1,714 bases of DNA from Naegleria gruberi. Its lineage: Eukaryota. The notes below the pieces were generated by a model that worked only from the letters and a program-made list of their open reading frames with translations, did not search any database and was not told the origin of the DNA. How positions within the stretch are numbered: position 1 is the first letter of the stretch; each line of letters opens with the position of its first letter. Made by a program: the position numbers and the translations under genes. Location: the NCBI GenBank assembly GCA_000004985.1, contig GG739339.1. One strand, 5' to 3'. Below, piece by piece: positions 8-1,714 of the stretch.

Positions 8-313
8 TCAACTGCCACCAATCTCTTCTAGTTTTCCAATGTTCAAAAGATACATGATGGAAATATATTCATTGTTATTAGTGGAATGTGTGGTCGTGTC
101 ATTGCTCTCTATTGAATTGAATGGTTGGTATTGAGTGTAAATCTGATCTACAGGCTGATATGCAATCACATTTTCTACATTATCGGTAGTTTTCTGAGAT
201 TGTTCATTATTTTCATTTCCAACATTCAATTCGGGTTGGTTATTCGAAACTTCTTCATGTGCTGGCTGAATTTTCAATGCATCCACCTTTTCAGAAGCTT
301 GCTCACTTGTTGT
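8..313 (-). CDS. In-frame continuation of the membrane-protein frame after the TAA at 314-316: 101 open codons, N/Q/T-rich and probably disordered (..YQPVDQIYTQYQPFNSIESNDTTTHSTNNNEY..), ending at TGA 10-8. The track's M at 286 is a GTG.
   Basis: Ends 610 and 286 are in the same frame (610-286 = 324). The only stop across 622..11 is TAA at 316-314. An open frame this long in AT-rich sequence is unlikely by chance, so this is likely current or former coding sequence of the same gene. Confidence 0.4.
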   Translation of the reverse strand, partial: TTSEQASEKVDALKIQPAHEEVSNNQPELNVGNENNEQSQKTTDNVENVIAYQPVDQIYTQYQPFNSIESNDTTTHSTNNNEYISIMYLLNIGKLEEIGGS

Positions 314-544
314 TTATTCAACTTGAATTTCTGGTGAATTATTTCCTTTTGAATTGGAAATTGGATGAACAGTTGCAGAGGAAGATGATTTAGTTCTAAT
401 TTCAGGTTTAGTTTCTTCTTTCGAAATGTGATTTCCCAAGTCAAAATCAAGATAACCCTCTCTGTAAACTAAAACCCCAGTGACTAAGAAAATGCAATAA
501 CAACACAAAGTGAACCCAATTGTCAATGCAGCAAAAGAATACAT
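314..544 (-). CDS. Small single-pass membrane protein, 76 aa from the first ATG (544-542) to TAA (316-314). It has an N-terminal transmembrane helix (YSFAALTIGFTLCCYCIFLVTGVLVY, about 464-541), then a charged Ser-rich tail.
   Basis: Track ORF 314..610 starts at TTG (610-608), not a real Met. The frame is open upstream to a TGA at 625-623, and the first ATG is at 544-542. A 26-residue hydrophobic segment is followed by REGYLDFD and KEETKPEIRTKSSSS. Same strand and orientation as the Cys-rich gene, about 100 nt downstream of its stop. Confidence 0.5.
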   Translation of the reverse strand: MYSFAALTIGFTLCCYCIFLVTGVLVYREGYLDFDLGNHISKEETKPEIRTKSSSSATVHPISNSKGNNSPEIQVE

Positions 545-646
545 GATTCCAAATTTGTAAGGTGTATATTCATTGGTTGTAGCAAATTCAGAGTATGATT
601 GACTGGCCAAAGAGCAAGATATTCATCCTCACAATAGTAATCTGAA

Positions 647-715
647 TTACAAGCCCGTAGCATTAGTTTGAGTTTCATATTTCATTGTAATTGTTGGTGT
701 CCAACATTCTCTACA
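647..715 (+). repeat. Copy A of a ~65-70 nt direct repeat (3' end of the Cys-rich CDS including the stop).
   Basis: Plus 661-710 (cattagtttgagtttcatatttcattgtaattgttggtgtccaacattct) against 1432-1480 (cattagttagactttcatattttattgtaactgttggattcatcattcc) is about 40/49 identical by hand alignment with one 1-nt indel. Confidence 0.7.
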
Positions 716-1003
716 TGTCACTGTACACAACCTGTCAGCCACACTATTACAACATCTACAACTATAAAAAGTACAACTTCCCTTATTGGAACAAGTTCTA
801 CAAGTATCACAACAAGTACTGCAACAATGATAACCATCACAACAACTTGAAGAGGAATTGATGACCAACATTTGTTGCATGATACTACAAGTATTTCCCC
901 CTCCACAACTACTGCAATAAGAGCAATCTTTGGTGCAACATTTTGATGACAAGACAGTAGTGGCTATCACTGTGCATGTTGTGGGCAGAAAGGTTTCTTT
1001 CAC
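647..1003 (-). CDS. Cysteine-rich low-complexity small protein (23 Cys in 118 aa; CC doublets, repeated TCCD units). Probably the terminal exon of a split gene: the track's M at 1003 is a GTG (Val), with no ATG at the 5' end of the frame. Stop TAA at 647-649.
   Basis: Longest open frame in the window (119 codons, open from 1018 down to 650). The stop and the last ~20 codons are conserved in a second copy at 1421-1490, and the substitutions between copies are conservative in this frame (I/V, M/I, T/S). The same ACA/TGT codon repeat gives Thr- and Val-rich ORFs in the other frames, which I consider artefacts. Confidence 0.55.
   Translation of the reverse strand: MKETFLPTTCTVIATTVLSSKCCTKDCSYCSSCGGGNTCSIMQQMLVINSSSSCCDGYHCCSTCCDTCRTCSNKGSCTFYSCRCCNSVADRLCTVTCRECWTPTITMKYETQTNATGL
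745..905. repeat. Codon-level low-complexity tract rich in ACA/AAC/CAA on plus (TGT/GTT/TTG on minus), with an internal tgttgtgat recurrence. It produces three overlapping ORFs in the track (Cys-rich, Thr-rich, Val-rich).
   Basis: Runs such as acaacaagtactgcaacaatgataaccatcacaacaact. Track ORFs 647..1003(-), 668..850(+) and 718..906(-) all derive from this tract. Confidence 0.6.
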
Positions 1004-1004
1004 C

Positions 1005-1133
1005 CTGATCTCAGCTGTTTAATAGCAGTTTTCTGTAAATTATAATACTATTTGAATGATTACGTACGATAGGTCTCCCTGATGAATTATGTTTCACATC
1101 ATTAATAAGATATTTAGGAAATATATTACTCAC
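1005..1133 (-). other. Putative spliceosomal intron (129 nt): donor GTGAGT at 1133-1128, acceptor cag at 1007-1005. Splicing joins gg|g and keeps the hydrophobic N-terminal exon in frame with the Cys-rich ORF (..IFFG-G-VKETFLPTTC..).
   Basis: The donor matches GTRAGT consensus. Only this acceptor (gatcag|G) of the AGs I checked preserves the frame. The polypyrimidine tract is weak. The better-looking tttacag acceptor (AG at 1034-1033) would instead give a 38-aa peptide ending KLLLNS* at 1011. Confidence 0.3.
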
Positions 1134-1205
1134 CCAAAGAATATTCCAATCCATATTGAAAACATGACAATCATTAAGGTTCCGACTGTTGTTAGCAAAC
1201 AGCAT
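1011..1205 (-). CDS. 64-aa ORF from the track (ATG start). It overlaps the proposed exon 1 and intron in a different frame, and is probably not a real protein.
   Basis: Its composition is the N/I/K-rich product typical of AT-rich non-coding or out-of-frame sequence. The overlapping +1 frame gives a coherent hydrophobic leader ending exactly at a GTGAGT donor. Listed because it has a genuine ATG. Confidence 0.15.
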   Translation of the reverse strand: MLFANNSRNLNDCHVFNMDWNILWVSNIFPKYLINDVKHNSSGRPIVRNHSNSIIIYRKLLLNS

Positions 1206-1228
1206 GCTATCATTGAAAACTGTCTCAT
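1134..1228 (-). CDS. Putative exon 1 of the Cys-rich gene. ATG at 1228-1226 in aaaatATG context. It encodes a hydrophobic signal-peptide or signal-anchor-like N-terminus (MRQFSMIACCLLTTVGTLMIVMFSIWIGIFFG), and the frame ends at a GTGAGT donor.
   Basis: Hand translation of the minus strand gives a 31-codon hydrophobic frame from ATG (plus cat at 1226-1228). Its TGA stop is part of a consensus GTGAGT donor (plus actcac 1128-1133). This frame (codon starts at 1 mod 3) is the same frame as the Cys-rich ORF beginning at 1003. Confidence 0.35.
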
Positions 1229-1420: not shown

Positions 1421-1490
1421 TTAAACTGTTTCATTAGTTAGACTTTCATATTTTATTGTAACTGTTGGATTCATCATTCCAAAATAATCA
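1421..1490 (+). repeat. Copy B of the same direct repeat, about 770 bp from copy A.
   Basis: Same alignment as above. One codon indel near the stop. Similarity decays at the B-copy acceptor site. Confidence 0.7.
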
Positions 1491-1495
1491 GATTG
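1421..1495 (-). CDS. Paralogous 3' coding end (QSDYFGMMNPTVTIKYESLTNETV*, stop TAA 1423-1421). It is preceded by a nematode-style acceptor ttttcccttgcag (AG at 1497-1496). Either the terminal exon of an upstream paralog or a truncated relic.
   Basis: Nucleotide and peptide similarity to the C-terminus and stop of the Cys-rich gene (WTPTITMKYETQTNATGL*). Its frame is open only back to a TAA at 1555-1553, with no ATG before the MM at 1477-1472. I could not find an upstream exon in the window with compatible phase. Confidence 0.35.
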   Translation of the reverse strand, partial: QSDYFGMMNPTVTIKYESLTNETV

Positions 1496-1714
1496 CTGCA
1501 AGGGAAAATTGTTGCCATTCTCTCTTCGGCTCTTAACAAAGACATCAATAACTTAAAAAAACAACTACAAATTTTTAAAAAATGGCGCTTCCATCTTGTT
1601 CCAGTTATTGTAAAAATAGAGAGAATCACCAACAATAACTTCATTATGAATCAACAGAAAGGGTGAACGGTTAATGTATAGCACATTGTCTCAATGTCTT
1701 GGGTAACATATCTA

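What the first reader, a model, noticed from the sequence alone, without database searches (positions are those of the whole stretch)
647..1003. Unusually cysteine-rich (about 19% Cys) low-complexity ORF with CC doublets
There are 23 Cys in 118 residues, arranged as CC, CxxC and CxxxC spacings (KCCTKDCSYCSSC, SCCDGYHCCSTCCDTCRTCS, SCRCCNSV, CTVTCREC). This is typical of metal-binding, metallothionein-like or extracellular disulfide-rich structural proteins. I do not recognise it as a known family from memory. With the proposed upstream hydrophobic leader it would be a secreted or membrane-anchored Cys-rich protein.
Basis: partly seen in the sequence, partly recalled or inferred. Interest (0 to 1): 0.55.

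Follow-up and report, generated by a model that had tools for sequence, protein, structure and literature searches.

The report
Cysteine-rich membrane-protein exon, likely decayed copy
The cysteine-rich reading frame is real: it encodes the disulfide-rich outer domain of a two-pass membrane protein from an uncharacterised family found in amoebae such as Naegleria and in fungi, but this copy carries frameshifts and a premature stop and is probably a recently dead gene.

Summary
Observation confirmed. Shuffles give 4.2±1.9.

It is not low-complexity or metallothionein-like. It is the main exon of a spliced gene (1228→8, minus strand) from a conserved eukaryotic family. A family profile scores this frame at 114 bits (E 3e-37), and 18 of the 22 Cys lie in columns that are ≥80% Cys across 96 representatives. 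dN/dS against the closest relative is 0.18.

This copy looks degenerate. Deletions of 20 and 31 nt shift the frame and remove the family's C-x-Y-N-P-x-N strand. One conserved Cys is lost. An in-frame TAA precedes a still-conserved tail. Best reading: a recently inactivated paralogue.

The function of intact members is inferred only: a partner-binding membrane adaptor or auxiliary subunit coupled to ubiquitin ligases. Interest is modest.

The parts
1134..1228 (-). Exon 1. ATG at 1228..1226, short N-terminus MRQFSM, then the first membrane helix ending in the family motif W-I-G-I-F-F-G.
   Evidence: Sequence and translation. The motif aligns with P0002, L001 exon 1 and fungal relatives. The family HMM weakly matches this segment.
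1079..1133 (-). Intron A, 55 nt, GTGAGT...CAG. Absent in relative L001.
   Evidence: The DNA alignment to L001 shows an insertion here. Removing it restores the conserved peptide.
1068..1078 (-). 11-nt microexon GGAGACCTATC, encoding (G)ETY(P).
   Evidence: Near-identical to L001's exon end AACCTATC|GTAAGT. The spliced product IGIFFGETYPEIRVKETF matches L001's GVFFGETYPEIRVKETF.
1015..1067 (-). Intron B, 53 nt, GTACGT...ACAG. Same position as the 51-nt intron of L001.
655..1014 (-). Main exon, containing the finding's ORF. It encodes the N-terminal β strands of the ectodomain plus the Cys-rich β-hairpin insert (22 Cys), ending ...CWTPTITMKYETQTNAT.
   Evidence: Family HMM 114 bits, E 3e-37. 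62% amino-acid identity and dN/dS 0.18 against L001. AF2 pLDDT 91.7. Cys column conservation.
647..661 (-). First frame break. A net 20-nt deletion relative to L001 (about 7 codons, V-x-x-x-x-K-x, plus a frameshift).
   Evidence: DNA alignment and protein alignment.
592..654 (-). Homologous coding segment now in the +1 frame: ACNSDYYCEDEYLALWPVNHT (helix region of the ectodomain).
   Evidence: Matches P0003 ECKYDYGCVEEYLAAWPVNSS and P0001 TCNTDYTCVDNYLSLYQLNQT. The family HMM hits frame m1 here.
589..591 (-). Second frame break. A 31-nt deletion relative to L001 removes the family's hallmark strand (S-x-C-x-Y-N-P-x-N) with its near-universal Cys and returns the reading to the original frame.
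317..589 (-). EFATTNEYTPYKFGIM, then the second membrane helix (about 464..553), then the start of the cytosolic tail.
   Evidence: ORF 314..610. The N-x-Y-T-P-x-K-F-G-I-M motif is invariant among the heterolobosean relatives. HMM 19.5 bits.
314..316 (-). In-frame TAA inside the tail. It aligns to a TCA (Ser) codon in L001.
8..313 (-). Continuation of the tail in the same frame: 102 codons without a stop. It carries motifs shared with P0001 (YQPFN, N-N-x-Y-I-S). TGA at 8..10.
1432..1479 (-). 49-nt relic of a second family copy (..NPTVTIKYESLTN..) upstream of the gene.
   Evidence: 84% identity to 661..709. Score 55 against a maximum of 34 in 300 shuffles.

Best explanation
WHAT IT IS. The Cys-rich ORF is the central exon of a minus-strand gene (1228→8) in a eukaryotic genome with 34% GC. 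All nearest named relatives are heteroloboseans, so the source is probably Naegleria-like.

FAMILY ARCHITECTURE. The gene belongs to a conserved eukaryotic family of two-pass membrane proteins:
- a cytosolic N-terminus;
- a first membrane helix ending in W-x-G-x-F-F-G;
- a ~165-residue all-β ectodomain;
- a second membrane helix;
- a cytosolic tail.

The ectodomain has a DUF3592-type / BK-channel-β-type core. A ~100-residue set of long β-hairpins is inserted into that core. Its CC, CxxC and CxxxC cysteines (about 26 in the closest relatives) are inferred to form about 13 disulfides. The result would be a rigid, glycosylated spike or crown on the outer or lumenal face.

STATE OF THIS COPY. It carries several lesions:
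- two frameshifting deletions (20 nt and 31 nt), the second removing the family's most conserved strand, C-x-Y-N-P-x-N;
- loss of one conserved Cys;
- a TAA inside a tail that is still open and conserved downstream.

It is therefore most likely a recently inactivated paralogue. It lies next to a 49-nt relic of another copy, which suggests birth-and-death turnover of a small gene family.

FUNCTION OF INTACT MEMBERS (inferred, not shown). The membrane-helix hairpin and ectodomain would dock onto a partner membrane protein, as BK β subunits dock on Slo1. The cytosolic ends carry PPxY motifs, tyrosine motifs or, in some members, an F-box. These would recruit Nedd4/Rsp5-type or SCF ubiquitin ligases to control the partner's trafficking or turnover.
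For: Coding frame and homology:
- P0001 at E 6e-42 and P0002 at E 1e-26.
- The profile search finds 266 clusters at E≤1e-3 and 105 at E≤1e-10.
- The family HMM on the six frames gives 114 bits for the minus frame of the ORF.
- dN/dS is 0.18.
- Cys column conservation.

Gene structure.

Lesions:
- The 20-nt and 31-nt deletions and the TAA-versus-TCA difference in the DNA alignment to L001.
- The missing Cys columns 233 and 302.
- The frame-switch pattern in the HMM hits.
- The upstream relic.

Fold:
- AF2 model of the closest complete relative P0008 has pLDDT 96.2, with helix 7-41, a β domain, and helix 205-243.
- The window's own ORF has pLDDT 91.7 with the same order of elements.
- The top 10 Foldseek PDB hits are all BK β4 or β2N-β4 chains.
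- hhalign of the family against a KCNMB alignment gives E 5.5e-4, probability 30%, in the structurally equivalent C-terminal helix plus C-[YF]-[YF]-N strand.

Other family evidence:
- DUF3592 matches in 48 of 105 members, best 7.5e-9.
- 39 giant-virus DUF3592-like proteins share the fold.
- Cytosolic modules: PPxY/LPxY in 37 of 105 members, mostly at the extreme C-terminus; F-box in 4 members, including Naegleria fowleri FDP41_000578.
- Taxonomy of named relatives.
- Naegleria genomes have 33-36% GC (PMC8296547).
Against: Against the pseudogene reading:
- No transcript or second assembly is available.
- The two deletions sum to 51 nt, a multiple of 3.
- The out-of-frame stretch is bounded by GT...AG (650..603, 48 nt, in frame), so a spliced in-frame product cannot be excluded.
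- The tail behind the TAA is still an open 102-codon frame. Any inactivation must therefore be recent, or the lesions could be assembly errors.

Against the functional inference:
- The window's own protein gives no Pfam hit.
- The link to DUF3592 runs through relatives, mostly below the gathering score.
- The link to BK β is structural, with only 30% hhalign probability.
- The window's tail has no PPxY.
- No member of the family has been studied experimentally. The literature searches found nothing on it.
Confidence: 0.65

Rival explanations
1. The gene is functional. The out-of-frame segment 650..603 is a third short intron (GTAATT...CCAG, 48 nt). Splicing it out gives an in-frame protein of about 243 aa: first membrane helix, Cys-rich domain, second membrane helix, and a tail ending at the TAA at 314..316. 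This would be a shortened family variant that lacks the C-terminal third of the ectodomain core.
For: The segment is bounded by GT and AG. Its length is similar to the three confirmed introns (51-55 nt). It is a multiple of 3. The spliced model used as the query reads through cleanly. The Cys count in the resulting ectodomain (22) is even.
Against: The 'intron' still encodes, in its own frame, a segment clearly homologous to conserved protein sequence (ACNSDYYCEDEYLALWPVNHT against P0003 and P0001). It is therefore ex-exon sequence. Its 5' site, GTAATT, departs from GTGAGT, GTACGT and GTAAGT. The product would lack the helix and the C-x-Y-N-P-x-N strand that are the most conserved part of DUF3592-type domains. 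The conserved tail motifs lie behind the TAA.
Confidence: 0.17
2. The gene is intact in the organism. The two frame breaks and the TAA are sequencing or assembly errors, for example indels in a long-read assembly.
For: The first break lies at a GGG run (ACGGGCTT, about 655..657). All downstream frames remain open and homologous.
Against: Relative to L001 the differences are 20-nt and 31-nt gaps, not single-base indels. Even after correcting single bases, the protein would lack about 17 residues, including the hallmark strand. An independent in-frame 2-codon deletion also removes a conserved Cys.
Confidence: 0.1
3. It is a metallothionein-like or other intracellular metal-binding Cys-rich peptide, one of the first reader's options.
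For: High Cys content with CC and CxxC spacings.
Against: There is no Pfam match of any kind. The domain lies between two conserved membrane helices. It carries a conserved N-x-S/T sequon before CCDGY. It contains aromatic residues. It is predicted with high confidence as long β-hairpins in a BK-β/DUF3592-type ectodomain.
Confidence: 0.02
4. The plus-strand Ser/Thr-rich ORF (668..850) is the real gene and the Cys frame is its antisense shadow.
For: An open frame of 60 codons exists.
Against: It is the mirror of the TGT codons: 17 of the 22 Cys codons are TGT, whose complement ACA encodes Thr. The family profile gives it -12 bits against 114 bits for the Cys frame. Homologues conserve the Cys frame with dN/dS 0.18.
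Confidence: 0.01

Closest known systems
Hypothetical proteins of Heterolobosea: Naegleria gruberi D2VUP7/XP_002672235 and the 142-aa predicted protein P0003, Naegleria fowleri FDP41_000578, Acrasis kona AKO1_010316. Also two metagenomic eukaryotic ORFs, P0001 and P0002.
   Same: Same family by sequence: 37-62% identity over the domain. Shared features are the same Cys columns, the same W-x-G-x-F-F-G helix, the E-T-Y-P-E-I linker, the N-x-Y-T-P-x-K-F-G-I-M motif, the second membrane helix and the tail motifs.
   Different: The window copy has frame breaks. It lacks the C-x-Y-N-P-x-N strand and one conserved Cys, and it has a TAA in the tail. It has two introns and a microexon where L001 has one intron and P0002 has none. 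It has no F-box N-terminus.
Pfam DUF3592 (PF12158): two-membrane-helix proteins with a small β domain, found in bacteria, archaea, eukaryotes and giant viruses.
   Same: Helix-β domain-helix architecture. The C-terminal half of the ectodomain of relatives matches the model: P0005 scores 26.2 bits against a cut-off of 25.3, and 48 of 105 members match at E≤1, best 7.5e-9. Giant-virus proteins named DUF3592 are among the structural neighbours.
   Different: A ~100-residue Cys-rich hairpin insert with about 20 extra Cys splits the domain. Most members fall below the gathering score. The window's own protein gives no hit and has lost the matching strand.
BK (Slo1) channel β subunits, KCNMB1-4 (Pfam CaKB, PF03185; PDB 6v22_E, 9czh_E).
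   Different: About 11% identity. No CaKB Pfam match was seen in any of the 105 members. hhalign probability is only 30%. KCNMB4 has 8 loop Cys against about 26 here. No Slo1-type partner has been shown in these organisms. Membership is not established.
PY-motif transmembrane adaptors with Cys-rich ectodomains (the Shisa-like, WBP1/VOPP1 type). This comparison is from general knowledge.
   Same: A Cys-rich extracellular domain, membrane anchoring, and PPxY-bearing cytosolic tails in many family members. This suggests recruitment of Nedd4/Rsp5 ligases.
   Different: Those proteins are single-pass and have a different, smaller Cys domain. No sequence or fold match was found. The window's own tail has no PPxY.

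Membership tests
Unnamed eukaryotic Cys-rich two-pass family (Naegleria, Acrasis, fungal and Syssomonas hypothetical proteins) | Significant sequence similarity across the ectodomain with conservation of the Cys columns | tested here: met
   E 6e-42 to P0001. Family HMM 114 bits. 18 of 22 Cys lie in columns with ≥80% Cys.
Unnamed eukaryotic Cys-rich two-pass family | Flanking membrane helices with W-x-G-x-F-F-G (helix 1) and K-F-G-I-M (before helix 2) | tested here: met
   Both are present in the window, at 1134..1228 and about 464..553.
Unnamed eukaryotic Cys-rich two-pass family | Intact single reading frame through the C-x-Y-N-P-x-N strand to the tail | tested here: not met
   Two frameshifting deletions, loss of the strand, and a TAA in the tail. 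The copy is a member by descent but probably not a functional one.
Pfam DUF3592 (PF12158) | Match to the Pfam model at or above the gathering score (25.3 bits) | tested here: not met
   The window proteins give no hit even at E≤10. Relatives: P0005 scores 26.2 bits (met), and 48 of 105 match at E≤1, best E 7.5e-9 (bit scores for these members were not listed).
Pfam DUF3592 (PF12158) | Membrane helix, β domain, membrane helix architecture | tested here: met
   AF2 model of P0008. Both helices are encoded in the window. BFVD neighbours are annotated DUF3592.
BK channel β subunit (CaKB, PF03185) | Match to the CaKB Pfam model | tested here: not met
   No CaKB hit for the window or among the families matched by the 105 members. 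Human KCNMB4 scores 259.7 bits as a control.
BK channel β subunit (CaKB, PF03185) | Fold of the two membrane helices plus the extracellular loop domain | tested here: met
BK channel β subunit (CaKB, PF03185) | Profile-profile sequence homology | tested here: inconclusive
   hhalign E 5.5e-4 but probability 30%, over 50 columns in the equivalent region. Against the single KCNMB4 sequence the probability is 4%.
BK channel β subunit (CaKB, PF03185) | Assembly with and modulation of a Slo1-type α subunit | not testable with these tools
   This needs co-expression, electrophysiology or co-folding. No α subunit was sought in heterolobosean genomes.
Metallothionein | A small cytosolic protein with Cys in C-x-C / C-C clusters, essentially no aromatic residues, and a match to a metallothionein model | tested here: not met
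   No Pfam hit. Y, F and W residues are present. Membrane helices flank the domain. β-domain prediction.
TNFR-type Cys-rich domain (UniRef label on P0005) | Match to a TNFR Cys-rich domain model | tested here: not met
   No TNFR family appears among the Pfam hits of the window proteins or of P0005.
PY-motif ubiquitin-ligase adaptors | PPxY/LPxY motif in a cytosolic segment | tested here: not met
   None in the window's tail (sequence). Present in 37 of 105 relatives.

The most novel reading that the evidence does not exclude
Intact members of this family may be ancient, pre-metazoan counterparts of BK-channel β subunits. They would be auxiliary subunits that dock by their membrane-helix hairpin onto ion channels or transporters of amoebae, fungi and unicellular holozoans, and would cap them with a hyper-disulfide-bonded crown. 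Through PPxY tails or F-box N-termini they would tie the partner to ubiquitin ligases. The fusions to VWA + Cache (α2δ-like) ectodomains would then join two kinds of channel auxiliary module in one protein. On this reading the window's copy might still be expressed as a shortened variant.
Probability: 0.12. Interest if true: 0.65.

Novelty: new member of a known kind. Interest (0 to 1): 0.33.

Why it matters
For this window, the result turns an odd Cys-rich ORF into an annotated object. It is an exon of a spliced, probably decaying, membrane-protein gene. This explains the Cys bias, the antisense Ser/Thr ORF and the neighbouring ORFs in one model.

At family level, it flags an unstudied and widespread group. 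The group comprises 266 clusters at 50% identity and spans Heterolobosea, fungi and a unicellular holozoan, with fold relatives in giant viruses. These proteins combine a DUF3592 / BK-β-like fold with an unusually dense disulfide scaffold and with ubiquitin-ligase-recruiting cytosolic modules.

If the BK-β relationship is real, it would push the origin of that auxiliary-subunit fold well before animals. It would also give DUF3592 a first functional hypothesis.

Tried and rejected
Searches that gave nothing useful:
- Exact-sequence look-ups of the ORF and of P0003 in the assembly index found nothing.
- An exact 46-mer search of JGI metagenome contigs found nothing.
- The search for related loci gave only one 25%-identical locus. 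The source contig and any orthologue therefore remain unknown.
- Pfam on the window's proteins gave nothing meaningful.
- A profile search of PDB sequences gave only chance hits, dynein light chain at E about 0.5.
- The afdb50 fold library was unavailable.
- Literature searches for DUF3592, PF12158 and PF03185 found no paper on this family.

Ideas considered and dropped:
- A ciliate genetic code (TAA = Gln). This would explain the in-frame TAA, but the relatives are heteroloboseans and fungi, the TAA aligns to a TCA codon, and TGA codons also interrupt the out-of-frame stretch.
- A Euplotes-style +1 ribosomal frameshift at TTG-TAA. The shift must occur before the conserved TGT (Cys) codon upstream of that stop, so this does not fit.
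- A single 119-nt intron joining exon 1 to the Cys exon. It is either out of frame or skips the conserved ETYPEIR peptide. The two-intron and microexon model reproduces that peptide exactly.
- A tandem or internal repeat origin of the Cys pattern. Only short chance-level repeats occur inside the ORF.

Full report
**1. Observation**

The window is 1714 nt with 34% GC. The minus-strand ORF 647..1003 exists and has 118 codons. All the quoted peptide motifs are present. Mononucleotide shuffles of the same DNA give 4.2±1.9 Cys, with a maximum of 14 in 20,000 shuffles. The bias is therefore not compositional.

The plus-strand Ser/Thr ORF 668..850 is the antisense mirror of the Cys codons. Seventeen of the 22 are TGT, whose complement ACA encodes Thr.

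**2. It is conserved coding sequence**

A search with a spliced model found three relatives:
- P0001: 343 aa, from an ENA metagenome contig with 35% GC, E 6e-42.
- P0002: 359 aa, E 1e-26.
- P0003: a Naegleria gruberi predicted protein.

An exhaustive profile search found 266 clusters at E≤1e-3 and 105 at E≤1e-10. Every relative that carries a source name is labelled 'hypothetical' or equivalent:
- Naegleria fowleri FDP41_000578
- N. gruberi D2VUP7
- Acrasis kona AKO1_010316
- Syssomonas multiformis
- the fungi Rhizophagus clarus, Mycena floridula, Pluteus cervinus and an Auriculariales species

A family HMM run on the six frames of the window gives 114 bits (E 3e-37) for the Cys frame and -12 bits for the Ser/Thr frame. 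All 22 Cys align with Cys in P0001 and P0002. Eighteen lie in columns that are ≥80% Cys across 96 representatives. Against L001 the exon has 62% amino-acid identity and dN/dS 0.18, with dS near saturation.

**3. Gene structure**

Comparison with the P0001 locus L001 and direct splicing give this model on the minus strand:

| Element | Coordinates | Notes |
|---|---|---|
| Exon 1 | 1228..1134 | MRQFSM, then a membrane helix ending WIGIFFG |
| Intron A | 1133..1079 | 55 nt, GTGAGT..CAG |
| Microexon | 1078..1068 | 11 nt |
| Intron B | 1067..1015 | 53 nt, GTACGT..CAG |
| Main exon | from 1014 | Cys-rich ectodomain |

The spliced peptide IGIFFGETYPEIRVKETFLPTTC reproduces L001's GVFFGETYPEIRVKETFLASTC. 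L001 has only one 51-nt intron, at the position of intron B. P0002 has none.

The relatives are heteroloboseans, and the GC content agrees with Naegleria genomes (33-36%; PMC8296547). The exact source was not found.

**4. The copy is damaged**

- After ...YETQTNAT the window lacks 20 nt present in L001. Homology then continues in the +1 frame (ACNSDYYCEDEYLALWPVNHT, 654..592).
- After that a further 31 nt are missing. Homology returns to the original frame (EFATTNEYTPYKFGIM, the second membrane helix, then the tail; 589..317).
- The second deletion removes the S-x-C-x-Y-N-P-x-N strand. This is the most conserved element of the C-terminal half, and it is the part that matches DUF3592.
- An in-frame two-codon deletion removes another conserved Cys, column 233.
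- A TAA at 316..314 aligns to a TCA codon of L001. It is followed by 102 further open codons carrying tail motifs shared with P0001 (YQPFN, N-N-x-Y-I-S).
- There is no room for introns at either frame break.
- A 49-nt relic of another copy lies upstream at 1479..1432. It is 84% identical to 709..661, scoring 55 against at most 34 in shuffles.

The simplest reading is a recently inactivated paralogue. Three things keep alternatives open. The out-of-frame stretch is bounded by GT..AG (650..603, 48 nt, in frame). The downstream frames are still open. There are no expression data. A shortened spliced variant (about 0.17) and assembly error (about 0.10) therefore remain possible.

**5. What the domain is**

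AlphaFold2 on the closest complete relative P0008, with 105 family sequences, gives pLDDT 96.2. The model has a long helix (7-41), an all-β ectodomain with one short helix and a second helix at 169-178, and a long helix (205-243). The window's own 118-aa ORF models at pLDDT 91.7 with the same order of elements. The CC/CxxC segments form long β-hairpins.

Several lines of evidence argue for an extracellular or lumenal, disulfide-bonded, glycosylated domain with both termini cytosolic:
- conserved N-x-S/T sequons, for example I-N-S-S before CCDGY;
- the flanking membrane helices;
- cytosolic-type modules at the ends of relatives.

This topology is inferred.

**6. Relation to known families**

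*By sequence.* The window's proteins have no Pfam hit. In contrast, 48 of 105 relatives match DUF3592 (PF12158) at E≤1. The best is 7.5e-9, and P0005 exceeds the gathering score.

*By profile.* hhalign of the family against a KCNMB alignment aligns the structurally equivalent helix and C-[YF]-[YF]-N strand at E 5.5e-4, but with only 30% probability. The KCNMB4 sequence used was verified as identical to PDB 6v22_E. The KCNMB1 sequence in that alignment was from memory. No CaKB Pfam match was seen.

I therefore file the window's gene as a member, by descent, of an unnamed Cys-rich-insert subfamily of the DUF3592-type fold. That fold resembles BK β subunits. Membership of the KCNMB family itself is not established.

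**7. Likely function of intact members (inferred)**

- PPxY/LPxY motifs occur in 37 of 105 members, mostly within the last ~20 residues or in N-terminal cytosolic extensions. By my rough estimate this is well above the chance expectation of a few per cent.
- Four members carry an N-terminal F-box, including the N. fowleri protein.
- Several proteins of 730-890 aa place the module behind a VWA plus PDC/Cache ectodomain, with a weak VWA_N match. This arrangement is reminiscent of calcium-channel α2δ subunits. Two membrane helices lie between it and the module, which keeps the Cys domain outside.

Together with the BK-β-like fold, these features suggest a membrane adaptor or auxiliary subunit. 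It would bind a partner membrane protein and couple it to Nedd4/Rsp5 or SCF ubiquitin ligases. The window's own tail has no PPxY. It has tyrosine motifs (YQPV, YQPF, YISI) shared in part with P0001. Nothing here is experimentally shown, and the literature searches found no paper on the family.

**8. Verdict**

The object is a new, probably degenerate, member of an existing but uncharacterised family. Interest in the window itself is low to moderate. The family-level leads are the part worth following: a BK-β/DUF3592 fold with a hyper-disulfide insert, ubiquitin-ligase modules and α2δ-like fusions.

Noticed in passing
window 1432-1479 (minus strand): A 49-nt segment is 84% identical to 661-709 of the gene (..NPTVTIKYESLTN.. 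against ..TPTITMKYETQTN..). It is a relic of a second family copy just upstream of the start codon. No other family signal was found in 1229-1714.
   Followed up: partly
window 1015-1133 (minus strand): An 11-nt microexon (1068-1078) sits between a 55-nt and a 53-nt GT..AG intron. The relative L001 has a single 51-nt intron at the second position and P0002 has none. This indicates intron gain or loss within the family.
   Followed up: yes
window 668-850 (plus strand): The Ser/Thr-rich antisense ORF is the complement of the TGT-rich Cys frame. It has no family signal (-12 bits).
   Followed up: yes
window 1474-1644 (minus strand): A 56-codon ORF beginning MKLLLVILSIFTITG looks like a signal peptide. 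It lies upstream of the relic. Its significance is unknown.
   Followed up: no
relatives P0002, P0009, P0155 (Naegleria fowleri FDP41_000578): Some family members carry an N-terminal F-box domain ahead of the first membrane helix. This would make them membrane-anchored F-box proteins with a Cys-rich ectodomain.
   Followed up: partly
relatives P0079, P0087, P0140 (730-890 aa): In these proteins the module is fused behind a VWA + PDC/Cache ectodomain with a weak VWA_N match. The arrangement resembles calcium-channel α2δ subunits.
   Followed up: partly
105 family representatives (alignment A4): PPxY/LPxY motifs occur in 37 of 105 members, mostly at the extreme C-terminus. This suggests binding to WW-domain (Nedd4/Rsp5) ligases.
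   Followed up: partly
BFVD hits to model md2727f488c66: Thirty-nine giant-virus proteins share the two-helix + β-domain fold at E≤1e-3. They come from Pandoravirus, Pithovirus, Tupanvirus, klosneuviruses and Bodo saltans virus. Several are annotated DUF3592. A preprint calls one Pandoravirus cluster BK-β homologues.
   Followed up: partly
L001 3184-4356: The contig carrying the closest relative also encodes a divergent actin-family protein (PF00022). This is consistent with a eukaryotic origin for that metagenomic contig.
   Followed up: no
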